A DNA stretch of 64,000 nt. It comes from Calditrichia bacterium. Its GTDB lineage: Bacteria; Calditrichota; Calditrichia; RBG-13-44-9; J075. The position numbers were made by a program, and so were the translations under genes. The stretch spans positions 32,001 through 96,000 of the forward strand of contig JBOEGD010000030.1 in the NCBI GenBank assembly GCA_050633245.1, given 5' to 3'. How positions within the stretch are numbered: position 1 is the first letter of the stretch; every line of letters begins with the position of its first letter. The notes under the pieces are model-generated. The model did no database searches. It saw nothing but the letters and a program-made list of their open reading frames with translations, and was not told the origin of the DNA. This document shows, one piece after another, positions 6,278-56,331 of this stretch.

Positions 6278-6629
6278 TGTAACTCCTAACATGGTATCAA
6301 AAAATATAGGCATTATAGATTTGGCAACGCAAGTCGAAACCTGAATCAAAAAGACATAGATTTATGTGCAGGAACAAACTTTTTTTGTTGATTTGTCGGA
6401 TATATTCGACATGGAAAACTCTCTATATGTTTAGACTCAATTCCTTCAACGATCAACACGTGAAAAAGTTCGCAACCGCACGCAATTGATTGTATCCTCT
6501 GGACTTGCAGGTTTTCAATTTTACGTACAAATAATATGTGATTTTCAATAAGTCATTTCTGCTAAAAATTCGAGACTATTTTTTAACGAAAAGAAGGGGT
6601 TAACGAGCGAGGGATTAATGAGATTTTCC

Positions 6630-36690: not shown

Positions 36691-36771
36691 TTGACAATGA
36701 GAAATTATTCACTATATTGCCCTTGTGAAGAATATCACGATTGTTGTCCCACATTGTGAACTCTCTCGCAA
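36691..36771 (+). promoter_or_regulatory. Promoter upstream of aceA with three TGTGA-N6-TCACA-like boxes
   Basis: TTGACA-N16-TATATT; boxes at 36697-36714, 36723-36740 and 36754-36771. Confidence 0.6.
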
Positions 36772-36928
36772 AAAATAAACATCCTTTTCATCTCTATCGT
36801 TCTTAGCCCATGTGATCTGTAGCCTACAGATCGCCTTTCTTTTTTACTTAATTGTAGTTATAGAGATGTAAAAGCAGGTCGATTATTGTTAAATAAAATG
36901 CAATTTAAAAATGCCGTAAGGAGGTATG

Positions 36929-38218
36929 ATGAGTCGCCTGAAACAAGCAGAAATGATGGAAAAAGATTGGAAAGAGAACAAACGTTGGGCGGGAATTAAA
37001 CGCTCTTACACTGCCGAAGAAGTAACAAAAATGCAGGGATCAGTCGTGTTGGAATATACGCTGGGGCAGCTTGGAGCAAAGCGCCTATGGGATCTTATGC
37101 ACAGCGAAGACTTTGTGAATTCGCTCGGTGCGCTAACCGGCAACCAGGCCGTCGAGCAAATCCAGGCCGGGTTAAAAGCCATATACCTGAGTGGATGGCA
37201 AGTTGCTGCTGACGCAAACCATGCCGGAATTATGTATCCCGATCAGAGCCTTTATCCTGCAGACAGCGTGCCGGGCGTTGTGCGTAAGATTAACAACGCT
37301 CTGATGCGCGCAGATCAAATTGATCACATGAACGGCAATACCGATATTCACTGGTTGGCTCCAATCGTTGCCGATGCCGAAGCCGGATTTGGTGGCGCTC
37401 TAAACGCATTCGAACTCATGCGCGCCATGATCGAATCTGGTGCTGCCGGAGTTCACTTTGAAGATCAGCTGGCCTCCGCTAAAAAATGCGGCCACATGGG
37501 TGGAAAAGTTTTAGTACCTACCGATGAGTTTGTTCGCAAGCTAATCGCGGCGCGTCTGGCAAGCGATGTCATGGGTGTACCGACCGTCCTATTGGCAAGA
37601 ACAGATGCATTTAGCGCCACGCTTATTACCAGCGATGTAGATGAATACGATCATCAATTTATCGATTATGATGCAGAACGTACTATCGAAGGGTTTTATC
37701 GCCTTAAAGGCGGCCTAGATCGCGCAATTGCTCGTGGTCTTGCCTACGCGCCATATTGCGACGTTATCTGGTGCGAGACAGCAACACCCGATCTGGATGA
37801 TGCTCGAACGTTCGCCGAAGCAATCCACGATAAATTCCCAGGTAAACTTCTTGCATATAATTGCTCTCCATCTTTCAACTGGAAGCGCCATCTGGATGAA
37901 GCGACCATCGGAAAGTTCCAGCGTGAACTTGGCGCCATGGGATACAAATTCCAGTTCGTAACGCTGGCCGGATTCCATACGCTGAATACAAGTATGTTTG
38001 AGTTAGCTCTGGGCTATCGTGATAAAGGAATGGCTGCTTATTCGAAGCTACAGGAAAGAGAATTCGAGCTGGAACGCGATCATGGTTTTCGCGCTGTGAA
38101 GCATCAAAGTTTTGTAGGTGCAGGGTATTTTGATGAGATTCAGAATATCATTACCGGTGGAGCCGCATCAACCCGGGCACTGGAAGGCTCTACCGAAGAA
38201 GAGCAGTTTCACGACTAA
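36929..38218 (+). CDS. aceA: Isocitrate lyase
   Basis: KKCGHMGGK signature, [29 protein letters not shown] spacing favours the second ATG (36929) over 36926. Confidence 0.97.
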
Positions 38219-38299
38219 GTAACTCACAAACTATAGATATCACTTGAACGCAGCTTATTGCCAATTCAGGTGGTATCTACTCCCAAAACAATTTTGAGC

Positions 38300-38334
38300 A
38301 AAAAAAAACACGGCAGGCCAAAGACCTGCCGTGT
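38300..38334 (-). terminator. Intrinsic terminator (minus strand)
   Basis: ACACGGCAGG-TCTTTGG-CCTGCCGTGT followed by a T-run. Confidence 0.88.
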
Positions 38335-38377
38335 AACCCAAATAACCAAAACAAAGGAGAGAGAAGACTCACCTTCT
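38300..38377 (-). ncRNA. Candidate trans-acting sRNA (~78 nt)
   Basis: Own -10 and activator site, 5' hairpin, single-stranded C/U- and G/U-rich seed, intrinsic terminator, and long complementarity to two distant loci. Confidence 0.65.
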
Positions 38378-38383
38378 TATGAG

Positions 38384-38426
38384 AATATACACCGTGAACT
38401 TACGTTACCATGTGATACCCTGCACA
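38384..38426 (-). promoter_or_regulatory. Class II CRP/FNR-type activated promoter of the candidate sRNA
   Basis: -10 TATATT (38389-38384); TGTGC-N6-TCACA (38426-38411) centred at -41.5 for +1 at 38377; poor -35. Confidence 0.55.
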
Positions 38427-38565
38427 AAAAGTTTACTTTCTCCCCCTTGCAACCCAACTAAAGATACATCATTTTTTTTCTATTTACAATCCACAACATA
38501 TAATTCTTCAAAAAACGCTCATCAGGCGTTATCTTTGCCCCTGTAAACCACAAAGAAACAGCATG

Positions 38566-40266
38566 TTAGCGATTTTCAATCACAATTTTGAACGGACGCA
38601 CCTGATTTCGACCATTTTCTTTTGCAGCGTAAAGGGCACTGTCAGCAAACCGAATCAGCTCTTCGGAATGCAGAGAATCGTTGGGGAAATTGGCAACGCC
38701 AATTGATATCGTCACCTTTTTATGAGGCAGCTGTTCTTCCTGAGGGAAAGGCGAGGTGGCAATAATATTGCATATTTTTTCTGCAAGCCGGATACCGCCG
38801 GCTTTATCAAGCTCAGTGCATATTATTACGAATTCTTCGCCCCCGTAGCGAGCGACAATATCACTACTTCGCGTATTTTCCAGCAATAAGCGAGCAACCT
38901 TACGCAATACAACATCACCGGCCTGATGGCCAAATGTATCGTTATATACTTTAAAAAAATCGATATCCAGCATCAGCAAACAGAAGTTGGTTTGATTGCG
39001 TTCAGAACGACTGACTTCACGTAAAAGCTGTTGATGAAAATAGCGATAGTTATACAAACTGGTAAGATGATCGGTTATAGCATCTTTTTCGGCGCGAAGA
39101 AATAGTTCCGTAAGCTGCTGACGAAGCTGAAGGTTTTGATGTGCAAGACTGGCTGCATTTATCAACATCTCCAGCAGTTTTACATCGTAAGGGGTGATTC
39201 TTCCGCTTATCGGTCGATCGATATAGAGAAATCCACCAAAATAAAACATCTCCGAACTCAAGTATTCATGCAGCTGACTTCGCACCATTTCAATATCCCG
39301 CTCAGACTGATGATTAAGTCCCGGTAAAAGCGCATCAAGCTGACGGCGAATATTTGTCGTCCCCGGAAGAGCGTCTCCGGCGGGCATCGATGTGCCCAAT
39401 ATCCCGAATAAAAACTGAGTTGCGCTTATCTCGTCTAAAATGCGATTGAAGTTGTCATCTTTAACTTTTCTGGAGCTGCTTATATAAAGCAGTGGTTTCC
39501 GCGAAAACAGACTTTGCACGAGTGTCGCATGGTAGGGCAATCGAATTTTCGACGCTTCGATATCGCTGAAGCCCGTAGAATAGGTTACACCAATTTGCAT
39601 AGACTCGTGGTTCACCTCTAAAAATGCGCAGCGCTGAAAATTGAAGTGGCTACTTATTTGCTCAACCAGCTGATGTTTTACCTCTTCCGGCGAGGTACAA
39701 AGCTGAAGGCCAGCAATAATATGCAGTAAACTTTCCAGCTTACCCGAGTAATTACGCAGCTTATGCGTGCTGTCCTTCAACAAATAGTTTGCCGTCTGAA
39801 GCTGCTTGATTTTATCGGTAAGATGATTAATGAGTGTTCGCTGATACTCTTTTTTATAGAACGCTCGGGACTCTTCATCAAGCACTTCGCGTTTTCCTGC
39901 TAAAAATTCGCTGATCTGCCGGGAAAAATTTTTCGTATCGATTGGCTTGGTAATATAGCCATCACACCCTGCAGTTAGAGACAGCTCCCTGGCATGAGAC
40001 TCACGCGTTGCTGTCAGGGCGATAATAATGGTTTTAGAGAGCTCGGGAAGGGTTTTTAATTGAGTGGCAAGATCAATACCGCGCATATCCGGTAGGTTCA
40101 AATCCATCAGGATTAAATCAGGAATAATTTCCTGTGCCTTTTGCAGGCCACTCATTCCATCTGGCGCTTCGAAGCAGTCAAATGGAGAGTTATCCAAAAC
40201 TTTTGCTATCAACATTCGAGATGCGTGATCATCTTCCACATATAAAACTTTTGGCGCATTTACCAT
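38566..40266 (-). CDS. Diguanylate cyclase (REC-GAF-like-GGDEF)
   Basis: N-terminal receiver (EDD..MD..KP); RSSD I-site and GGEEF. Confidence 0.9.
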   Translation of the reverse strand: MVNAPKVLYVEDDHASRMLIAKVLDNSPFDCFEAPDGMSGLQKAQEIIPDLILMDLNLPDMRGIDLATQLKTLPELSKTIIIALTATRESHARELSLTAGCDGYITKPIDTKNFSRQISEFLAGKREVLDEESRAFYKKEYQRTLINHLTDKIKQLQTANYLLKDSTHKLRNYSGKLESLLHIIAGLQLCTSPEEVKHQLVEQISSHFNFQRCAFLEVNHESMQIGVTYSTGFSDIEASKIRLPYHATLVQSLFSRKPLLYISSSRKVKDDNFNRILDEISATQFLFGILGTSMPAGDALPGTTNIRRQLDALLPGLNHQSERDIEMVRSQLHEYLSSEMFYFGGFLYIDRPISGRITPYDVKLLEMLINAASLAHQNLQLRQQLTELFLRAEKDAITDHLTSLYNYRYFHQQLLREVSRSERNQTNFCLLMLDIDFFKVYNDTFGHQAGDVVLRKVARLLLENTRSSDIVARYGGEEFVIICTELDKAGGIRLAEKICNIIATSPFPQEEQLPHKKVTISIGVANFPNDSLHSEELIRFADSALYAAKENGRNQVRPFKIVIENR

Positions 40267-40397: not shown

Positions 40398-41768
40398 ATG
40401 CGACCTCCCCACAAATCGAATGAGTTGATTGAAGGCCCAATTTTAGCAAATGTTTTGAAATTAGCAACACCAATGATTGTTGCCTTTATTTTCATTACCA
40501 GCTATAACTTTATCGACCGGTTTTTTGTTAGCCAACTTGGTGATACTGCCACTGCTGCAATTGGAATGGCATTCATAGTTCAACTTACAATTATTTCTAT
40601 CGGAACCGGCATCAGCTCCGGCATAAAATCCTATATCTCCCGCAACCTTGGTGCTCAGCAAACAGATGATGCTGTTCAGGCTGCGCTGCATGCATTACTG
40701 CTTGCAGTCATTATCGGCATTTGCTTCGCAATCCTTGGAATTGCAATACAGCGGCCATTATTTCAAGCGATAGGAGCTGACGGAGAGCTGTTAGAATTCA
40801 TTATCAGCTATTTAACGATAATTTTCTTATTTACCCCGGTTAACCTGCTGTCCGTTTTTGGCAGCGGTATTTTTCAGGGGTGGGGCGATACGGTTTCTCC
40901 GATGAAGTTTTCTGTTGTGGGCACGTTGCTGAACATTGCGCTAGACCCTATCTTAATTTTCGGTTTATCTATTGTGCCAGGCATAGGCATTAAGGGGGCA
41001 GCACTTGCAACCGGGGTCGCTCGCACGGTTTCGTTACTATATATACTATTTCTTCTGTTCGTTCGCAAGAAGCCAGTTACTCTTTCTTTCCGCAACTTTC
41101 GTTATAGTCCCAGAATCATGCGCGGCATTATGGGGGTCGGTGCGCCATCCACAATCAGCCAGATATTAACCAGCATTTCTATGGGCGCTGTCTTTTGGCT
41201 GCTCGCTCCATTTGGCGAATCTGCAAAAGCAGCTTACACCATTGTTTTTACCTATGAGATGGTTATTTTTCTGCCGGCGATTGGACTAGCTCAGGCTGTG
41301 TCTATTATGACAGGACATAACTTTGGCGCGAATAAAAATGAACGAATTCCCAAAATCCACCATACCGGAATCGCCGCTTCCTTTTTAATAATGGGATGCA
41401 CTGCCGGATTGATTATGTTATTTCCGCGAGCATTCGCCGGAGTTTTTGCCCAAAGCGAAGAGGTATTGGCCATTAGCAGCCATGCGCTACAAATTACGGC
41501 GGTAGGTATCGTTTTTCTAAGCATCTACATCTGCAGCGTTACCAGCTTTTTAGGATTAGGACTCGGAAGACAATATTTGGCGGCCAACTTCCTGCGAATG
41601 TATGTATTGATGTTGCCATGTGCATATTTTGGCATCCAACAGTTTGGCATTGACGGCGTTTGGTATGGGCTGGCAGTCTCGAACATCGTAAGTTCGGTTG
41701 CATTGTTTTTCTGGCATAAGTATATTTTTAATTACAAAATTTTAACGGGTCAGATTAAGCCGTTGTAA
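40398..41768 (+). CDS. MATE family efflux transporter
   Basis: GDTVSPM..NIALDPILIFG..GIKGAALAT; about 12 TM segments. Confidence 0.92.
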   Translation: MRPPHKSNELIEGPILANVLKLATPMIVAFIFITSYNFIDRFFVSQLGDTATAAIGMAFIVQLTIISIGTGISSGIKSYISRNLGAQQTDDAVQAALHALLLAVIIGICFAILGIAIQRPLFQAIGADGELLEFIISYLTIIFLFTPVNLLSVFGSGIFQGWGDTVSPMKFSVVGTLLNIALDPILIFGLSIVPGIGIKGAALATGVARTVSLLYILFLLFVRKKPVTLSFRNFRYSPRIMRGIMGVGAPSTISQILTSISMGAVFWLLAPFGESAKAAYTIVFTYEMVIFLPAIGLAQAVSIMTGHNFGANKNERIPKIHHTGIAASFLIMGCTAGLIMLFPRAFAGVFAQSEEVLAISSHALQITAVGIVFLSIYICSVTSFLGLGLGRQYLAANFLRMYVLMLPCAYFGIQQFGIDGVWYGLAVSNIVSSVALFFWHKYIFNYKILTGQIKPL

Positions 41769-44700: not shown

Positions 44701-44760
44701 ACAGTTCTCGCTGCCGCCGTTCATTAGTACAACATTTGAGGTATTAGAAGAGAGTACCGT

Positions 44761-44810
44761 TAGCAGTTAGCACCGAGTTGGCTTTAAGACCAACCAGGTG
44801 GTAACTGCTA
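44761..44810. repeat. Long imperfect inverted repeat between convergent genes
   Basis: TAGCAGTTA.CACC..GTTGG / CCAAC..GGTG.TAACTGCTA. Confidence 0.65.
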
Positions 44811-44846
44811 TAGAAAGGGGCAAGGGGTTATGAAAGCGATTTCAAA

Positions 44847-45863
44847 TTAAAACGCAAACTGCGTATTTAGTACAATGAGGTGATTATCAAAGGAGCTCGC
44901 ATCAGCGTTGATTATATAGTTAATCCTCAGTTTTGTAATTGAAGTTGGCCAATAGTTATATCCGAATAAGAATAAACGATTCGCATCAACAGTTTCATCG
45001 AGATCAATTTGATCCCAACGAACCAAAAGCTGATGATCTGGTTTTACCTTATATCCTGCCGTTGCTTGAAATCCCTGAGGATTAGACTCGTCGATGGTAT
45101 TGCTTCTACTGTCAAGCGAAGCATAGATATATTCTCCGGTCAAGAGTAACGCATTTTGCTCAAAATAAATATCTGCACCCAGAATATTTCGCTTTCCGCT
45201 AAATCGTCTGCTGGCGTATACCACATTGTTATCGTTACTGGTTGCACCATTCACGCCCAGCTCAAGGGATCCACCTGCTATCTCGGGCATTACAGCCGCT
45301 CTTGCCATCACCATTAGGTCGTTATTATCATTTCTATTCCCACCGTACCCATTACCATTATAAACTCCGGCACTGACCTTAAAGATATCGTTATGCACGT
45401 CCAAGTGCATTCCGATTTGCCTTCCGGGAATTAACTGAGAAGCAATTTGAGAACGAGTTGTGAAATTCAAAGCGGGAATCCCGATAGAAAATTCTTTGCT
45501 GAAGAAGGTTCTATACAAACCGGCATTCAAGCGTACATTTGAATTTAACTTCCAATATAAACTCGCATCTAAAACGGCGACCGAGCTTAAGAAGTTGGTA
45601 TTTAATAAGTATCCGAGTTTCTTGTCGAGCTCACCGGTTACAACGATACGAGCCATTGGGATTCTGAAGCCATTGTTCCCGGCTGCAATGCGCTCAGATT
45701 GAAAATCCAGAGAAGTCTGCAAGAGCACACCGAGACTTAAGTATGGCTTTTTAAATGTCTCTATTAGTTTCTCTGCCAACGGCTCATCGTCAGGAGAAGC
45801 TTGTATGGGGGTGAATAAGAAGAACAAAAAGACCGTCATCCAAATTCGTAGTGTAGTTTTCAT
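44847..45863 (-). CDS. Outer-membrane porin (OprO/OprP-like)
   Basis: Signal peptide, GFRIPMARI, GRQIG..GVYNGNG, terminal Phe. Confidence 0.75.
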   Translation of the reverse strand: MKTTLRIWMTVFLFFLFTPIQASPDDEPLAEKLIETFKKPYLSLGVLLQTSLDFQSERIAAGNNGFRIPMARIVVTGELDKKLGYLLNTNFLSSVAVLDASLYWKLNSNVRLNAGLYRTFFSKEFSIGIPALNFTTRSQIASQLIPGRQIGMHLDVHNDIFKVSAGVYNGNGYGGNRNDNNDLMVMARAAVMPEIAGGSLELGVNGATSNDNNVVYASRRFSGKRNILGADIYFEQNALLLTGEYIYASLDSRSNTIDESNPQGFQATAGYKVKPDHQLLVRWDQIDLDETVDANRLFLFGYNYWPTSITKLRINYIINADASSFDNHLIVLNTQFAF

Positions 45864-45980
45864 TTTGGAGCCCTATAATTTGGGGTGAATAAGTTCCATC
45901 TTAGCCATTAACCTCTCCCTACCGCAAATTAGTATTCATCAAATCAATACAATGGCAATCGTGAAGAGTCCTATGACCGG

Positions 45981-46424
45981 TTATTTGTTTTTTTTAAATA
46001 ACCGGCCATAGACAGGCTTACGATAGAGAAACTGTAGATACAAAGCCGGGTAAAGCAAAATACTCACAAAGGGAAATTTACCGCGGAAGGTGATATCGTC
46101 AATAATCGTGCTGCCACTTCCCTTGCGAACAATTCGATGTTGATGACGCCAGTAGGAAAGAAAAAACGGCAGTGTACGTCCTTCATCGATAAAGTATATT
46201 TCGTCATCTGAGTTGCCGGAATCCACGATCTCACTGACCCACAGCTGTGGAAAGCCGGGAAATTTCAGCTTTAGATGTACTTCATCTCCCTTTATACAAC
46301 CATCGAAGCGCAGCAGCTCAACAGGTATTCCGGGAGGGTTGAGAGCAAGAAAAAGCTCTTCGGTAAATCCGGAGAAAACTTCGCTTACAGACTGCTCTAC
46401 GGTTGTTGTTATTCTGATTCGCAT
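45981..46424 (-). CDS. SRPBCC family protein
   Basis: FIDEG..LPFFLSYWRHQH..TIIDDI; start MRIRITT. Confidence 0.75.
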   Translation of the reverse strand: MRIRITTTVEQSVSEVFSGFTEELFLALNPPGIPVELLRFDGCIKGDEVHLKLKFPGFPQLWVSEIVDSGNSDDEIYFIDEGRTLPFFLSYWRHQHRIVRKGSGSTIIDDITFRGKFPFVSILLYPALYLQFLYRKPVYGRLFKKNK

Positions 46425-46647: not shown

Positions 46648-47316
46648 CTAAACCGCCTCAACAAAGTTCAGTAAATGTCCTGACTTTTTTGCTTTTGTCT
46701 GTAAATATCCGCGATTAATGTCATTTGGTTCAATCTGCAGTGGAATGCGTTTACTGACATCAATACCAAATTCTTCCAATCCACGAATCTTATTGACGTT
46801 ATTTGTCAGAAGCTGTACAGAGTTTACGCCTAATGTTTTCAACATCTCGGCAGCAACATCATAGCGACGCAAATCATCTGGAAATCCCAAAAGATGGTTT
46901 GCCTCAACCGTATCATATCCTTCTTCTTGAAGAGCATAGGCACGAATCTTATTTCCAAGACCAATACCGCGACCTTCCTGTCGCATGTAAAGCACGATTC
47001 CACAATCACTATGATTGATATAGTTTAAACCTGCTTCGAGCTGTTCACGACAATCACACTTCAATGATCCGAGCACTTCACTCGTTAAGCACTCAGAATG
47101 AACACGAACCGGAACATTCTCACCATTGCTTATATCACCCTTCACAATCGCCAAGTGTTCCTTGTGGTCCAGCGTATTGCGAAAAACATAGACATCAAAA
47201 GCACCATGGGTTGTTGGCAGCTTTGTCTGGGCATAAATCCAGACGTTTTTCAAATTCTCTTTAATCACAGCGTACTCCGATCTGGCATGAGTCAAACAAC
47301 CAAAGTCCTCATGCAT
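46648..47316 (-). CDS. ribA: GTP cyclohydrolase II
   Basis: VRVHSECLTS..SLKCDC, QEGRGIGL, LLTNN. Exact start uncertain. Confidence 0.93.
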   Translation of the reverse strand: MHEDFGCLTHARSEYAVIKENLKNVWIYAQTKLPTTHGAFDVYVFRNTLDHKEHLAIVKGDISNGENVPVRVHSECLTSEVLGSLKCDCREQLEAGLNYINHSDCGIVLYMRQEGRGIGLGNKIRAYALQEEGYDTVEANHLLGFPDDLRRYDVAAEMLKTLGVNSVQLLTNNVNKIRGLEEFGIDVSKRIPLQIEPNDINRGYLQTKAKKSGHLLNFVEAV

Positions 47317-47459
47317 GAGTTAAATTTATATTTTGAGCCCTGCACAAGAATGTGCGCGAGGCGCTTGTATGTGTAATGTCAATATTTTCATCTTCGACGT
47401 TTGCCCATCCTCTATTAGTTTAGATGGATTTTTTAGCTAAAAGTTACCATGAATCGTAC

Positions 47460-47619
47460 ATACCAAAGGCCGACGGTGGAGTGTCGACCTCTGGCTTAAG
47501 CATTGGGGGAACAGGTTGGATATGTTGGAAGGCTTTATTAAGGAACAAGTTCCTTTGTTTAGATTATTTGGGTCAATTTTTATTTTTGTTATCCACATGA
47601 GCGTTTTGAACGTTTTCTT
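47460..47619 (-). ncRNA. Candidate ~160-nt RNA (sponge sRNA or structured ribA leader)
   Basis: Near-consensus promoter, 3' hairpin at 47463-47494 with G-U pairs on the minus strand, and 23-nt complementarity to the 38.3-kb sRNA seed. Confidence 0.5.
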
Positions 47620-47625
47620 GTTTAT

Positions 47626-47654
47626 ATAATAACAATACATCGCCTACTTGTCAA
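47626..47654 (-). promoter_or_regulatory. Strong sigma70 promoter
   Basis: TTGACA-N17-TATTAT with an extended -10 TG. Confidence 0.75.
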
Positions 47655-47665
47655 GGGGAAAAATG

Positions 47666-53170: not shown

Positions 53171-56100
53171 TTATTTGGACAACACCATTTTTCGGGAGGA
53201 TACAAATGAGCCTGCATTTATTTGATAGAAATAAACACCCGACGGGAACTGTGCAGCATTAAAGTCCAGTGTGTAAGCACCAGCACTCTGACGCTCACTT
53301 ACCAGGGTTGCTACTTTCTGTCCGGCAATGTTGAAGATAGTAACAGTTACGTCGCTTGATTGCGGAATAGAGTAGCGGATCGTAGTCGTCGGGTTGAACG
53401 GATTCGGATAGTTCTGCTCAAGCTCGAAGTTATTGATCGTTCCATCGAGCAGATCATCCTCAATACCTACGATTGGCGAGAACTCTACTACATCGCCATT
53501 TGGCAGTGCAGCAAAGAGTCCAAAAGCAGGACCGTTCTGGTTTGCTGAAGGCGTTAGGAAGCCAGAGGCAAAAACCTGAGCGGCTCCACCGGCAAGACCG
53601 GAAAGGTCAGCAGTAAAAGAAGCCACTACGGTTGAACCACTCGCATCCGTTACATCGAGTGTGTATGAAGCAGCAGGGACGCCAACATATCCCGTAATGT
53701 CACCATATGCCGCGTCGTCTACCAAGGTTGCAACACCGCGCGCAACGACGTCGACAGTTGGTGCATCGGAGGAGCCATGCAGCGCAGAGAACTCAACTGT
53801 ATTAACATCAGTAGAAGCTTCTTGACCTGTTGGATTGATGAACAGACCGAAAGCAGTACTTCGTCCATCCGGGTTCGGAGCAAATGCACTCGGATCGAGA
53901 ACACCATTGGCAATAACCACATAGGTCTCACCAGGAGTCAGAGTTACATTGAAATTAGCTAATGTATCACCAACACCACCGCTATTCGGACCGGCAACAC
54001 CAATGTCAATCGGCGTGCCCGCAGGTGCATCAATAAATGCAGTGGCATCACGGAAGGCAAAATCATCAAGAAGAATTCCACCGTTAAGATAAATATCAAC
54101 AACTGCTGCGCCAGGATCAGCGGCATTGTGAATGACTTGAACACGCGCTGTGTTGATCGCAGGAAATTCTACGATGTCACCCGTTGGTAAGGCTGCGAAT
54201 AAACCGAAAGCTGCGCCATTTTGATTTGCTGAAGGATCTAAAAATCCGGAAGCGAAAACAGTAGCGGCTCCGCCGGCGAGTCCCGAAAGATCAGCGGCGA
54301 AGGATGCGACCGTTACTGCTCCGCTTCCATCTTTTACGTCTAATGTATATGCTGCAGGGGGAACACCAATATAGCCGGTGATGTCACCATATGCTGCGTT
54401 GTCTACCAGTGTCGCAACACCCCGCGCATCAACATCAACAGTCGGCGCATCGGAAGAACCATGAACAGCAGCGAATTCAACGGTTGCCGGATCGCTGGAA
54501 GCTTCCTGGCCAACCGGATTAATAAATAAACCAAAAGCAGTGCTACGGCCATCAGGGTTCGGAGCAAAAGCTGTTGGATCGAGAACACCATTGGCAATGA
54601 TTACATACGTTTCACCAGCTGTAAGCGTCGCAGTAAAGTTCGCAAGCGTATCGCCTACACCGCCACTGTTAGGGCCAGCAACACCAATATCAAGCGGCGT
54701 GCCCGCAGGAGCATCAATAAATGCTGTTGCATCGCGGAAAGCAAAGTCGTCTAGAAGAAGTCCGCCGTTTAGGTAGACATCGACAATCGCTGCTGCCGGG
54801 TCGGCTGCATTGTGAATAACTTGAACACGGGCGGTTGTGATTGCCGGGAACTCTACAACATCACCTGTAGGTAAGGCTGCAAATAGCCCGAAAGCTGCAC
54901 CGTTTTGATTTGCTGAAGGATCCAGAAAACCGGAGGCGAACACCTGGGCTGCCCCGCCGGCAAGTCCGGAAAGGTCAGCTGCAAAGGACGCTACGGTTAC
55001 AGTACCTGTTGCATCTTTTACATCAAGCGTATAAGCTGCTGGTGGGACACCAACGTAACCGGTAATGTCGCCATAAGCTGCATCATTTACCAGAGTAGCA
55101 ACGCCGCGGGCATCGACATCAACTGTGGGCGCATCGGAAGAGCCATGTAAGGCAGAAAACTCAACCGTCGCTGGATCGGTGGATGCTTCCTGACCGAGTG
55201 GGTTTACGAACAGGGTAAAAGCAGTACTACGACCATCAGGGTTCGGCGCGAAAGCTGTTGGATCAAGAACACCGTTGGCGACAACAACGTAGGTCTCACC
55301 TGGTGTCAAAGTCACATTAAAGTTAGCAAGCGTATCGCCTACGCCACCACTATTCGGGCCAGCGACACCTATATCAATTGGTGTACCTGCAGGCGCATCG
55401 ATAAATGAAGTAGCATCGCGGAAAGCAAAATCATCAAGAAGAAGACCGCCATTGAGATACACATCCACAAGCGCAGCGCCTGGATCAGCCGCATTGTGAA
55501 TTACCTGGACTCGAGCAGTATTCGCTGCAGCACTTCCTTTATGAATAACGTGATCGACCCACAAATTGTCTGATGAGCTTCCTGAAGGACCTCCATCAGT
55601 TATGTAATAATTGATGGCGACGAATGGCTCGCTACCGGCAAATGCAGACATATCAAACGCATAACGATTCCAGGAACTAACAGGGCCATCGACTTTAAAG
55701 TAGCCAACAAGGTCTGTAAAGCTACCAAGTGAACTGTCGGTAGTCGAAACCCAAACACGAAGCGAATCAGGAAAATTACCATCGATTGCGCCAGCATAAA
55801 AGATTAGACTATCACCAGACTCAACGGCCGGTAATTGAGGTGAGATGATATATTCATCAATCAGAAACCCATTCGCATTATTAAAGCTGCTGAAAAAGAA
55901 ACTTTGTCCGGCTTCCGGGAAAATAGAATCACCGCTGAGAAAACCGACATCTTGACGAAATTCCCATCCGGCACCACTGCCGTCGTTATCAATCAACTGC
56001 CAACCGGCGGGCAGCGTAGTGGTATCAAATGTTTCTTCAAACTTAACGTTTTTCTCAGCAGCAACTTCCTGATTGCCGGGAACACCGCGCTCAAATTCAG

Positions 56101-56200
56101 TCGCGCGAATGCGATCTACAATTTCATCCTGCGCCAATAACGACATTGGCAGAACAAAAGCTGCAATCAGCAAACCTCGTAGTAAAACAGTAAACTTCAT
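53171..56200 (-). CDS. Secreted protein: cleaved-adhesin-like domain + 3 tandem DUF4397-type repeats + T9SS-like C-terminal domain
   Basis: ATG at 56200 with SD GGAGG; signal peptide; GWQLIDNDG..DEYIISP; ARVQVIHNAADP three times at a 684-nt period; QNYPNPFNP. Confidence 0.85.
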   Translation of the reverse strand: MKFTVLLRGLLIAAFVLPMSLLAQDEIVDRIRATEFERGVPGNQEVAAEKNVKFEETFDTTTLPAGWQLIDNDGSGAGWEFRQDVGFLSGDSIFPEAGQSFFFSSFNNANGFLIDEYIISPQLPAVESGDSLIFYAGAIDGNFPDSLRVWVSTTDSSLGSFTDLVGYFKVDGPVSSWNRYAFDMSAFAGSEPFVAINYYITDGGPSGSSSDNLWVDHVIHKGSAAANTARVQVIHNAADPGAALVDVYLNGGLLLDDFAFRDATSFIDAPAGTPIDIGVAGPNSGGVGDTLANFNVTLTPGETYVVVANGVLDPTAFAPNPDGRSTAFTLFVNPLGQEASTDPATVEFSALHGSSDAPTVDVDARGVATLVNDAAYGDITGYVGVPPAAYTLDVKDATGTVTVASFAADLSGLAGGAAQVFASGFLDPSANQNGAAFGLFAALPTGDVVEFPAITTARVQVIHNAADPAAAIVDVYLNGGLLLDDFAFRDATAFIDAPAGTPLDIGVAGPNSGGVGDTLANFTATLTAGETYVIIANGVLDPTAFAPNPDGRSTAFGLFINPVGQEASSDPATVEFAAVHGSSDAPTVDVDARGVATLVDNAAYGDITGYIGVPPAAYTLDVKDGSGAVTVASFAADLSGLAGGAATVFASGFLDPSANQNGAAFGLFAALPTGDIVEFPAINTARVQVIHNAADPGAAVVDIYLNGGILLDDFAFRDATAFIDAPAGTPIDIGVAGPNSGGVGDTLANFNVTLTPGETYVVIANGVLDPSAFAPNPDGRSTAFGLFINPTGQEASTDVNTVEFSALHGSSDAPTVDVVARGVATLVDDAAYGDITGYVGVPAASYTLDVTDASGSTVVASFTADLSGLAGGAAQVFASGFLTPSANQNGPAFGLFAALPNGDVVEFSPIVGIEDDLLDGTINNFELEQNYPNPFNPTTTIRYSIPQSSDVTVTIFNIAGQKVATLVSERQSAGAYTLDFNAAQFPSGVYFYQINAGSFVSSRKMVLSK

Positions 56201-56331
56201 AGAAGCCTCCAGATAAGATAGGGTTTTGGTTATTTGGGTTACACTTAAATTATCATACATACGTTGACTGCCTTGGGTTGAAGCAGACTTCGCTAAATAG
56301 TCAATTCGAAACCGCTTATGCCCGTTTTAAT

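What the first reader, a model, noticed from the sequence alone, without database searches (positions are those of the whole stretch)
38300..38426. Candidate trans-acting sRNA with a G/U-rich seed and identifiable targets
Seen on the minus strand: TGTGC-N6-TCACA centred at -41.5, -10 TATATT, then AGAAG-GUGAGU-CUUCU (5' hairpin), CUCUCCUUUGUUUUGGUUAUUUGGGUU (anti-SD plus G/U-rich seed), and a strong terminator with a U-run. Positions 38331-38352 are perfectly complementary (22 nt) to the 5' UTR at 56223-56244. Positions 38336-38358 pair with 47551-47573 (23 nt, one G-U, one mismatch). Established: this layout resembles enterobacterial sRNAs, and GcvB uses a G/U-rich seed against C/A-rich translational enhancers. 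Inference: a multi-target sRNA in a lineage where I know of none. Alternative: the 3' UTR of the diguanylate cyclase gene.
Basis: partly seen in the sequence, partly recalled or inferred. Interest (0 to 1): 0.85.

Follow-up and report, generated by a model that had tools for sequence, protein, structure and literature searches.

The report
Conserved small RNA gene, one strong target
A short non-coding stretch between two metabolic/signalling genes of an uncultured marine bacterium is almost certainly a conserved small regulatory RNA gene, and one part of it matches the start of a surface-protein mRNA perfectly over 22 bases, but its expression and its wider target set remain unproven.

Summary
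The minus-strand block is a real, selected non-coding element. A relative about 5.5% diverged shows no listed change over 38292-38522. A relative about 73% identical keeps it in the same gene neighbourhood, with the longest identical run of 8.2 kb lying inside it. No Rfam family matches. No homologue was found in 36 other genomes of the order.

The 22-nt perfect complement sits at -44 to -23 of a gene for a type IX secretion system (T9SS) cargo protein and is the best site in the genome. The second site, upstream of ribA, is only borderline. There is no wider enrichment of complementary sites in 5' UTRs.

The 5' end is unresolved. The CRP-like palindrome plus TATATT fits a class-II promoter, and that motif is enriched in intergenic DNA genome-wide. 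Against a 78-nt-only RNA, a strand-specific 100-nt hairpin with compensatory changes lies upstream of the proposed start, and a 189-nt contig in another run also extends upstream of it.

Hfq was not found; RNase III is present.

Verdict: a new sRNA family of a known kind. Expression and regulation are untested.

The parts
38301..38377 (-). Invariant core of the RNA: short 5' hairpin or 3' strand of the long hairpin, U/G-rich stretch, terminator
   Evidence: Identical in the window, L004 and L005 except for one terminator-loop base and the U-run length. The longest identical run in 8.2 kb against L004 is 57 nt at 38321-38377.
38300..38334 (-). Intrinsic terminator: 12-bp stem 38334-38308, then a run of nine U
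   Evidence: All 12 pairs are kept in L004. The X1 relative has one U fewer.
38335..38350 (-). Single-stranded U/G-rich seed UUUGGUUAUUUGGGUU between hairpin and terminator
   Evidence: Unpaired in the consensus and MFE folds. 100% identical in three lineages.
38351..38450 (-). Long imperfect hairpin (35 pairs) capped by a GUAA loop at 38403-38400; its base hides the CU-rich 'anti-SD'
   Evidence: Minus strand -40.9 kcal/mol, z -5.61, 0 of 200 shuffles. L004 z -4.02. Plus strand only -19.1, z -2.8. Four pairs changed on both sides, three on one side, none broken.
38411..38426 (-). CRP-type palindrome TGTGC-N6-TCACA
   Evidence: Identical in L004. The motif is enriched in intergenic DNA genome-wide.
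38384..38389 (-). TATATT, candidate -10 box 21 nt after the palindrome (start near 38377)
   Evidence: Invariant in three lineages. Geometry is listed.
38461..38489 (-). Alternative sigma-70-like promoter TTGTAA-17 nt-TATCTT (start near 38454)
   Evidence: Read. Both hexamers and the 17-nt spacing are kept in L004. It falls below the threshold of the promoter scan.
38302..38490 (-). Stretch held as a single 189-nt contig in run X7
   Evidence: table 8, record 22: 0 differences, depth 34, flanks uncovered. The library type is not on record.
38566..40266 (-). Upstream gene: response regulator with GGDEF domain
   Evidence: Pfam PF00072 and PF00990. The same neighbour is present in L004.
56223..56244 (-). 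Target site 1: 22/22 complement, at -44 to -23 of the start codon
   Evidence: Duplex -37.5 kcal/mol including a second CUCC:GGAG contact at the SD.
53171..56200 (-). Target gene 1: 1009-aa secreted protein (Cleaved_Adhesin, 6 DUF4397, T9SS C-terminal sorting domain)
   Evidence: Pfam. GGAGG lies 5 nt before the ATG at 56200, and a signal-peptide-like N-terminus follows.
47551..47573 (-). Candidate site 2: 23 nt with one G-U and one U-U, 235-257 nt upstream of ribA
   Evidence: Duplex -32.3 kcal/mol. The score of 44 is reached by 7 of 40 shuffles somewhere in the genome.
46648..47316 (-). GTP cyclohydrolase II gene downstream of site 2
   Evidence: Pfam PF00925.

Best explanation
The block 38300-38490 (minus strand) is the gene of a small base-pairing regulatory RNA. 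It is specific to a narrow clade of an Hfq-less FCB-group (Fibrobacterota-Chlorobiota-Bacteroidota) marine bacterium.

Its invariant 3' module consists of a CU-rich stretch, 16 unpaired U/G-rich nucleotides and a strong terminator, and it is the working part. The unpaired stretch and its flanks anneal to the first 22 nt of the mRNA of a T9SS-secreted adhesin-like protein. That site lies just upstream of the Shine-Dalgarno sequence, and a second short CUCC:GGAG contact may form on the Shine-Dalgarno sequence itself. The expected result is lower translation and/or cleavage of the two-turn perfect duplex by RNase III.

Transcription is probably controlled by a CRP-family regulator. There are two candidate arrangements, and they may coexist:
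- A class-II activated promoter starting near 38377, giving a ~76-nt RNA.
- An upstream sigma-70-like promoter starting near 38454-38490, giving a 150-190-nt RNA. In this form the palindrome lies about 30 nt downstream of the start, and a long hairpin masks the CU-rich part.

Shown: conservation, structure, complementarity, motif statistics. Inferred: transcription, the 5' end, pairing in the cell, and the direction of regulation.
For: Selection:
- The X1 relative differs at 175 of 3175 aligned bases nearby. It has 21 listed substitutions in 38230-38291 and 10 in 38523-38551, but none is listed in 38292-38522, only one U fewer.
- L004 and L005 are about 74% identical overall and syntenic. They keep the 3' 77 nt almost unchanged. 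Identity is 93.5% for 38301-38392, against 44% and 55% for the two flanking spacers and 73% overall.

RNA-level structure:
- The terminator.
- The hairpin has z -5.61 and -4.02 in two lineages and is much weaker on the other strand.
- 94 of 94 cells are paired, 4 pairs changed on both sides, and 0 such pairs appear in six slid controls.

Not coding and not a known RNA:
- 0 Rfam matches at gathering.
- SRP and 6S RNA lie elsewhere in the genome.
- No match in plasmids or phages.

Target:
- 22/22 complement, score 52, against a maximum of 48 in 40 shuffles.
- Duplex -37.5 kcal/mol, against -33.0 for the best of 4747 other start regions.
- The site is in the 5' UTR next to a GGAGG SD.
- The organism uses SD sequences: 44% of longest starts carry one, against a 10% background.

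Promoter.

Cofactors: no Hfq match in a 97% complete genome; RNase III present; 17 cNMP-binding matches.
Against: - No RNA run is on record for this organism, and the library type of X7 is unknown.
- An X4 contig (probably DNA) also seems to end close to the block's edge (from_end values at 38523-38524). Contig ends may therefore reflect assembly breaks at a conserved island.
- The exact 22-mer was found in only 2 metagenome stretches, both of them the RNA gene itself. No second (target) copy was seen, not even elsewhere on L005's 408-kb contig. The perfect match may be recent or confined to this species.
- Both top sites lie within 18 kb of the RNA gene, which also fits local sequence duplication.
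- There is no significant excess of complementary sites in 5' UTRs against dinucleotide shuffles.
- The table of differences is truncated (40 rows shown, 1748 not shown). Conservation of the target sites in X1, X4 and X6 could therefore not be read.
- Covariation rests on two sequences, and the structure was derived from those same sequences.
Confidence: 0.6

Rival explanations
1. The block is the structured 3' UTR and terminator of the GGDEF response-regulator mRNA. It acts in cis on that mRNA's stability or termination, with no RNA of its own. The 22-nt match is then a by-product of a local inverted duplication.
For: It is on the same strand and starts 44 nt after the stop codon. Between the gene and the strong terminator there is only a weak 5-bp hairpin with a T-run. 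The GGDEF gene is the upstream neighbour in L004 too. Both complementary sites are local.
Against: The 43 nt directly after the stop codon are diverged in X1 (10 listed changes), whereas the block is unchanged. Candidate promoter elements inside the spacer are conserved. The flanks of the 22-mer share no residual similarity, so any duplication would have exactly the seed's borders. This reading and the sRNA reading can both hold, as for a 3'-UTR-embedded sRNA.
Confidence: 0.2
2. It is a structured RNA of 150-190 nt whose function lies in the long hairpin (protein binding or sequestration, or another non-pairing role). The U/G-rich stretch would be a protein-binding or terminator-proximal module, not a seed.
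For: The hairpin statistics and compensatory changes. The 189-nt X7 contig. CsrA is present. The UUGGKUU motif is repeated three times.
Against: The most conserved part is the 3' module, not the hairpin apex or the 5' strand, which are 42% and 83.5% identical. There are few GGA motifs, unlike CsrB-type sponges (read). 6S and SRP RNA are found elsewhere. This reading leaves the 22/22 match unexplained.
Confidence: 0.12
3. ACCCAAATAAyCnAAAC is a DNA operator for a transcription factor, shared by three local loci. The RNA-level complementarity is incidental.
For: There are three copies within 18 kb, all in non-coding DNA, and the motif contains a 9-nt direct repeat AACCnAAA.
Against: The whole 77-nt core is invariant, not just the motif. 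In the RNA gene the motif sits between a hairpin and a terminator, an odd place for an operator. There are only two exact copies of the 13-mer in the window, and nothing scores above 39 elsewhere in the genome. Operators rarely need 22 identical bases.
Confidence: 0.05

Closest known systems
CyaR (enterobacterial CRP-activated sRNA; recalled from memory, not from a call)
   Same: A short terminator-ended RNA, a CRP-type site at its promoter, a pyrimidine-rich anti-SD-like stretch, and predicted repression of an envelope or surface protein mRNA.
   Different: No Rfam match at all. The host is FCB-group and no Hfq was found. Pairing is 22 bp perfect rather than about 10 bp. A possible long hairpin precursor exists.
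GcvB (RF00022)
   Same: A G/U-rich single-stranded seed predicted to bind a C/A-rich stretch upstream of the SD.
   Different: No match to the Rfam model. It is not next to a gcvA-like gene. No broad target set is detectable. It would be Hfq-independent.
3'-UTR-embedded sRNAs with their own promoter (for example the DapZ/MicL type; recalled)
   Same: It lies just downstream of a coding gene on the same strand and shares the only strong terminator.
   Different: The candidate promoters lie in the spacer, not inside the coding sequence. Processing has not been shown.
Chaperone-independent sRNAs of Bacteroidota such as GibS or MasB (recalled)
   Same: FCB-group host without Hfq, and extended single-stranded seeds.
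   Different: No sequence relation was tested or found. This organism uses SD sequences and sigma-70-like promoters rather than the Bacteroides TAnnTTTG type (339 sense against 344 antisense occurrences).
Rfam L20_leader (RF00558) and RsaE/RoxS (RF01820)
   Same: These were the best sub-threshold Rfam alignments. RsaE also has a C/U-rich unpaired motif before a terminator.
   Different: Scores are 25.4 against a gathering score of 58.7, and 25.2 against 79. The alignments rest mainly on the terminator.

Membership tests
Trans-encoded base-pairing sRNA (generic class) | Discrete small transcript with its own start and an intrinsic terminator | tested here: inconclusive
   The terminator is present. 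Two candidate promoters exist. There is no RNA data; the only hint is a 189-nt contig in a run of unknown library type.
Trans-encoded base-pairing sRNA (generic class) | Conserved, accessible seed | tested here: met
   The 16 unpaired nt at 38350-38335 are identical in the window, L004 and L005, and no change is listed for them in X1.
Trans-encoded base-pairing sRNA (generic class) | Complementarity to an mRNA start region beyond chance | tested here: met
   Site 1 is 22/22 and scores 52, against a shuffle maximum of 48 in 40 shuffles. Its duplex is the best of all start regions. Site 2 is inconclusive.
Trans-encoded base-pairing sRNA (generic class) | Change of target expression that depends on pairing | not testable with these tools
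   This needs reporter or knock-out experiments.
Multi-target (regulon-type) sRNA such as GcvB | Excess of seed complements in many 5' UTRs | tested here: not met
   At thresholds 28, 30, 32 and 34 there are 82, 38, 20 and 8 sites, against dinucleotide-shuffle means of 74, 30, 12 and 4.4. The fraction of 300 shuffles at least as high is 0.36, 0.22, 0.04 and 0.10.
Any Rfam family (4227 models) | Score at or above the family's gathering threshold | tested here: not met
   0 matches in the 64-kb window. The best sub-threshold hits are 25.4 and 25.2 bits.
CRP class-II dependent promoter | TGTGA-N6-TCACA centred 41.5 bp before the start, with a -10 box 21 nt after the site | tested here: inconclusive
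   The site matches 9/10 and TATATT lies at a 21-nt gap. Both are conserved in L004. The motif and this geometry are enriched genome-wide. The start site and regulator binding are untested.
6S RNA / SRP RNA | It would be the genome's copy of that housekeeping RNA | tested here: not met
   Both are found above cut-off elsewhere, on C9 and C4.
Hfq-dependent sRNA | Hfq encoded in the genome | tested here: not met
   No PF17209 match in the genome, which is 97.1% complete.

The most novel reading that the evidence does not exclude
This would be a CRP-family-controlled, chaperone-independent riboregulator of an uncultured marine FCB-group bacterium made in two forms. The long form is self-masked: a 100-nt hairpin hides the CU-rich anti-SD. 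The short form is active. Its seed forms a perfect two-turn (22-bp) duplex with the extreme 5' end of a T9SS adhesin mRNA. It is encoded in trans but behaves like a cis-antisense RNA, handing the mRNA to RNase III. It would link carbon status and the neighbouring c-di-GMP and glyoxylate-shunt genes to surface adhesion.
Probability: 0.15. Interest if true: 0.65.

Novelty: new member of a known kind. Interest (0 to 1): 0.5.

Why it matters
Base-pairing sRNAs are catalogued mostly for Proteobacteria and Firmicutes. Table 1 of a 2022 review counts 345 annotated sRNAs for Proteobacteria, 16 for the FCB group and 1 for Calditrichaeota (PMC9029176; passages seen).

A conserved sRNA with one clear predicted target and a recognisable CRP-type control site would be a usable entry point into riboregulation in a lineage without Hfq and without cultured model strains. 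It would also give a first candidate post-transcriptional regulator of a T9SS cargo gene.

It does not change concepts. The kind of element is well known.

Tried and rejected
Bacteroides-type promoter. I first suspected one because T9SS sorting domains are present. I rejected it: TAnnTTTG shows no strand bias upstream of genes (339 against 344), whereas TTGACA does (249 against 173). SD motifs are also common.

Small ORF inside the hairpin (TTG, 15-16 codons; read). Rejected: the changes relative to L004 are not of the third-position type, and they fit stem pairing instead.

Small ORFs and a riboswitch around site 2. A 34-aa TTG ORF has an SD only 2-3 nt from its start. No Rfam match had an E-value below 0.5.

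Paralogues. The blastn-short hits in C24 and C11 lie in long ORFs.

Distant homologues:
- blastn in 40 relatives and in 16 family genomes found only a terminator-like piece in G020.
- Covariance model R1 was run on 37 genomes of the order. It gave two weak hits (26.0 and 21.8 bits) that align mainly over the terminator.
- 80 isocitrate-lyase loci from named genomes gave 0 hits.

RNA evidence. No RNA holder was listed by the look-up of sequencing runs.

Target conservation:
- The differences at 56223-56244 and 47551-47573 in X1, X4 and X6 were not shown, because the table was truncated.
- The part of L005's 408-kb contig that would hold the target could not be fetched.

Other limits:
- Literature: one search found no paper on sRNAs of Calditrichota or Ignavibacteriota among the 10 of 14 papers listed. 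This is one search of the held library, not proof that nothing is in print.
- Supplements were not consulted.

Full report
**What is in the sequence**

On the minus strand, the spacer lies between a response-regulator/GGDEF gene (38566-40266, minus) and a convergent isocitrate lyase gene (36926-38218, plus).
- TGTGC-N6-TCACA at 38426-38411.
- TATATT at 38389-38384.
- AGAAG-GTGAGT-CTTCT.
- A CU-rich and then U/G-rich stretch.
- A 12-bp G+C-rich stem at 38334-38308 followed by nine T. This is the only terminator-like site in 38000-38800.

The 81-nt version folds at -30.1 kcal/mol (z -5.28). No Rfam family reaches its gathering score anywhere in the window. The best sub-threshold alignments, L20_leader at 25.4 bits and RsaE at 25.2 bits, lean on the terminator.

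**The organism**

Two of nine proteins scanned carry the T9SS C-terminal sorting domain. A neighbouring protein without a Pfam family resembles DUF5683-type proteins, commonest in Bacteroidota and Ignavibacteriota. The nearest isocitrate lyase in named genomes is from a Calditrichaeota MAG, at 74% identity. I therefore place the genome in the FCB group without settling the phylum.

Unlike Bacteroides, this organism uses Shine-Dalgarno sequences: 44% of longest starts carry one, against a 10% background. It shows no strand bias for TAnnTTTG (339 against 344) but does for TTGACA (249 against 173). Sigma-70-type promoter logic and anti-SD logic are therefore appropriate here.

**Is the element real?**

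Yes. Three observations support this.

- *Close relative.* Logan contigs of run X1 belong to a close relative with 175 differences in 3175 aligned bases next to the element. In the table this relative has 21 substitutions and one deletion in 38230-38291, and 10 substitutions in 38523-38551. Nothing is listed between 38292 and 38522 except one U fewer in the U-run. At 5.5% divergence, the chance of 231 unchanged bases is about 2e-6 (my arithmetic). One caveat applies: the table shows 40 of 1788 rows ('best supported kept'). The rows for this contig run without a gap by position from 38230 to 38626, so I take the interval as complete.
- *More distant relatives.* An exact-pattern scan of metagenome contigs with the 22-mer returned two stretches. 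Both are syntenic relatives, about 74% identical to the window over 8.3 kb and 4.5 kb. L004 holds the whole element. L005's locus starts inside it.
- *Conservation profile.* Against L004, the 3' 92 nt are 93.5% identical, the two flanking spacers 44% and 55%, and the whole alignment 73%. The longest identical run in 8.2 kb is 57 nt at 38321-38377. In the three-way alignment, everything from TGTATATTC to the end of the terminator is invariant, except for a 6-nt patch just before AGAAGG, one loop base and the U-run.

The element is narrowly distributed:
- blastn found no match in 15 other genomes of the family.
- Among 40 relatives, blastn found only a terminator-like piece in one genome.
- A covariance model run over 36 other genomes of the order gave only two weak hits that align mainly over the terminator.
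- There were no hits in 80 isocitrate-lyase loci, in plasmids or in phages.

**How long is the RNA?**

Two readings compete.

- The palindrome is centred 41.5 bp before position 38377, and TATATT lies 21 nt after it. Both are identical in L004, while the 21-nt spacer and the 6 nt before AGAAGG vary. That is the pattern expected for a promoter followed by a fully conserved transcript.
- I tested whether such a regulator motif exists in this genome. TGTGA-N6-TCACA with at most one mismatch occurs 44 times in about 1.03 Mb of intergenic DNA and 38 times in 5.31 Mb of coding DNA. The density ratio is 6.0, against 0.44-2.16 for the 29 palindromes made by permuting the half-site.
- 17 of 88 oriented intergenic sites have TAnnnT at a gap of 20-22 nt, against a 5.9% background. 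The site studied here is one of them.
- The genome has 17 cNMP-binding domain matches, two of them in the window.

*Long form.*
- The consensus fold of the window and L004 is a 100-nt hairpin (38450-38351). Its base pairs GCAAGGGGGAGA with the CU-rich stretch, and its apex is a GUAA loop at 38403-38400. It has 35 pairs: 4 changed on both sides, 3 on one side, none broken. With only two sequences the shuffle control cannot go below 30 of 500, and the structure was derived from these same sequences.
- Without the terminator, the hairpin folds at -40.9 kcal/mol (z -5.61) in the window and -38.5 (z -4.02) in L004, with 0 of 200 shuffles as good in either. The opposite strand gives only -19.1 (z -2.8). 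The structure is therefore specific to the minus-strand RNA.
- A sigma-70-like TTGTAA-17-TATCTT (38489-38461) is kept, with its spacing, in L004. It would start transcription near 38454.
- Run X7, from another study, holds a 189-nt contig equal to 38302-38490 with no difference at depth 34, and nothing else of the first 9.7 kb of the stretch laid. That pattern is what an abundant RNA would give. However, the library type is not on record, and an X4 contig also seems to end near the block's edge. I count this only as a hint.

The two forms may coexist. In the long form the palindrome lies about 29-44 nt after the start. That is similar to one of two such palindromes that follow a near-consensus TTGACA-16-TATATT promoter upstream of the isocitrate lyase gene.

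**Targets**

*Site 1.* Positions 38352-38331 are 22/22 complementary to 56244-56223 on the minus strand. The gene there encodes a 1009-aa protein with a Cleaved_Adhesin domain, six DUF4397 stretches and a T9SS sorting domain. The start at 56200 is preceded by GGAGG at 5 nt and followed by a signal-peptide-like sequence. The longer frame from 56260 adds 20 residues before it. This puts the site at -44 to -23. A GATAAT box at 56254-56249 would place the mRNA's first base at about the first base of the complement (my reading).

*Genome-wide ranking.* In an ungapped scan of both strands of the genome, this site scores 52, the ribA-upstream site 44, and all others at most 39. In 40 mononucleotide shuffles the genome-wide maximum was 38-48, and 7 of the 40 reached 44. 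With loops allowed, the duplex with site 1 is -37.5 kcal/mol, including a CUCC:GGAG contact at the SD. Site 2 gives -32.3. The best of 4747 other start regions is -33.0. My gene calls had placed site 1 inside the longest ORF, so it was rescored separately.

*Site 2.* It lies 235-257 nt upstream of ribA, inside a leader that follows a TTGACA-17-TATTAT promoter (my reading). It is not significant on its own. It stands out only because the second-best site of a 6.3-Mb genome lies 9 kb from the RNA gene.

*Wider regulon.* None is detectable. Counts of complementary sites in sense 5' UTR windows exceed mononucleotide shuffles (fraction at least as high 0.02-0.04 up to threshold 34). They do not exceed dinucleotide shuffles (0.04-0.36).

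*Conservation of the perfect match.* The metagenome scan found no second exact copy of the 22-mer. The perfect match is therefore not shown to be conserved outside this species.

**Mechanism**

I found no Hfq in a genome that is 97.1% complete. CsrA and RNase III are present. SRP and 6S RNA map elsewhere.

The most likely mechanism is chaperone-independent antisense pairing of the unpaired U/G-rich stretch and its flanks to the 5' end of the adhesin mRNA. This would block ribosome access, through the C/A-rich leader and perhaps the SD, and/or create a two-turn duplex for RNase III. All of this is inference.

The neighbourhood suggests a link between carbon status and surface behaviour, which is speculation. 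It comprises a c-di-GMP-making response regulator, a glyoxylate-shunt gene and three CRP-type sites within 1.7 kb.

**Comparison and verdict**

The element works like a CRP-controlled enterobacterial sRNA (CyaR, recalled) with a GcvB-like U/G-rich seed, but it belongs to no described family. It is best filed as a new sRNA family of a known kind, possibly embedded in the 3' UTR of the GGDEF gene.

A review table counts 16 annotated sRNAs for the FCB group and 1 for Calditrichaeota, against 345 for Proteobacteria (PMC9029176; passages seen). The lineage is therefore poorly charted.

Interest is moderate. The candidate is clean, with one sharp testable target, but nothing conceptually new is demonstrated, and expression is not shown.

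Noticed in passing
window 36691-36770: Upstream of the isocitrate lyase gene there is a near-consensus TTGACA-16-TATATT promoter. It is followed by two CRP-type palindromes (36724-36739 and 36755-36770, each 9/10), positions that suggest repression. Together with the palindrome in the RNA gene, that makes three such sites within 1.7 kb.
   Followed up: partly
whole genome G000: TGTGA-N6-TCACA with at most one mismatch is 6 times denser in intergenic than in coding DNA (44 against 38 sites). 17 of 88 oriented sites have a TAnnnT box 20-22 nt downstream. A CRP-type regulon with class-II geometry seems to exist in this FCB-group genome.
   Followed up: partly
window 47316-47660: The ribA-like gene has a leader of about 300 nt behind a TTGACA-17-TATTAT promoter (47654-47626, minus strand), but there is no FMN-riboswitch or other Rfam match.
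   Followed up: partly
window 40443-40483: A 41-nt run identical to L004 lies near the start of the MatE transporter gene. It is the second longest identical run in the 8.2-kb comparison and ties with the RNA as the most conserved 80-nt window.
   Followed up: no
window 54835-55890 and 44707-45990: In the close relative of run X1, about 1054 nt inside the T9SS target gene (the DUF4397 repeat region) are replaced by 370 other letters. Two stretches around 44.7-46.0 kb are skipped. The target gene therefore varies in repeat content between strains (table 5).
   Followed up: no
whole genome G000: T9SS sorting domains are present, yet SD sequences are common and there is no Bacteroides-type TAnnTTTG promoter signal. 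The translation and transcription signals are unlike those of classical Bacteroidota.
   Followed up: partly
L004 about 6440-6500 and L005 about 130-180: Both relatives have an extra A/T-flanked hairpin between the isocitrate lyase stop and the RNA's terminator. It is probably the lyase gene's own terminator. The window lacks it (read).
   Followed up: no
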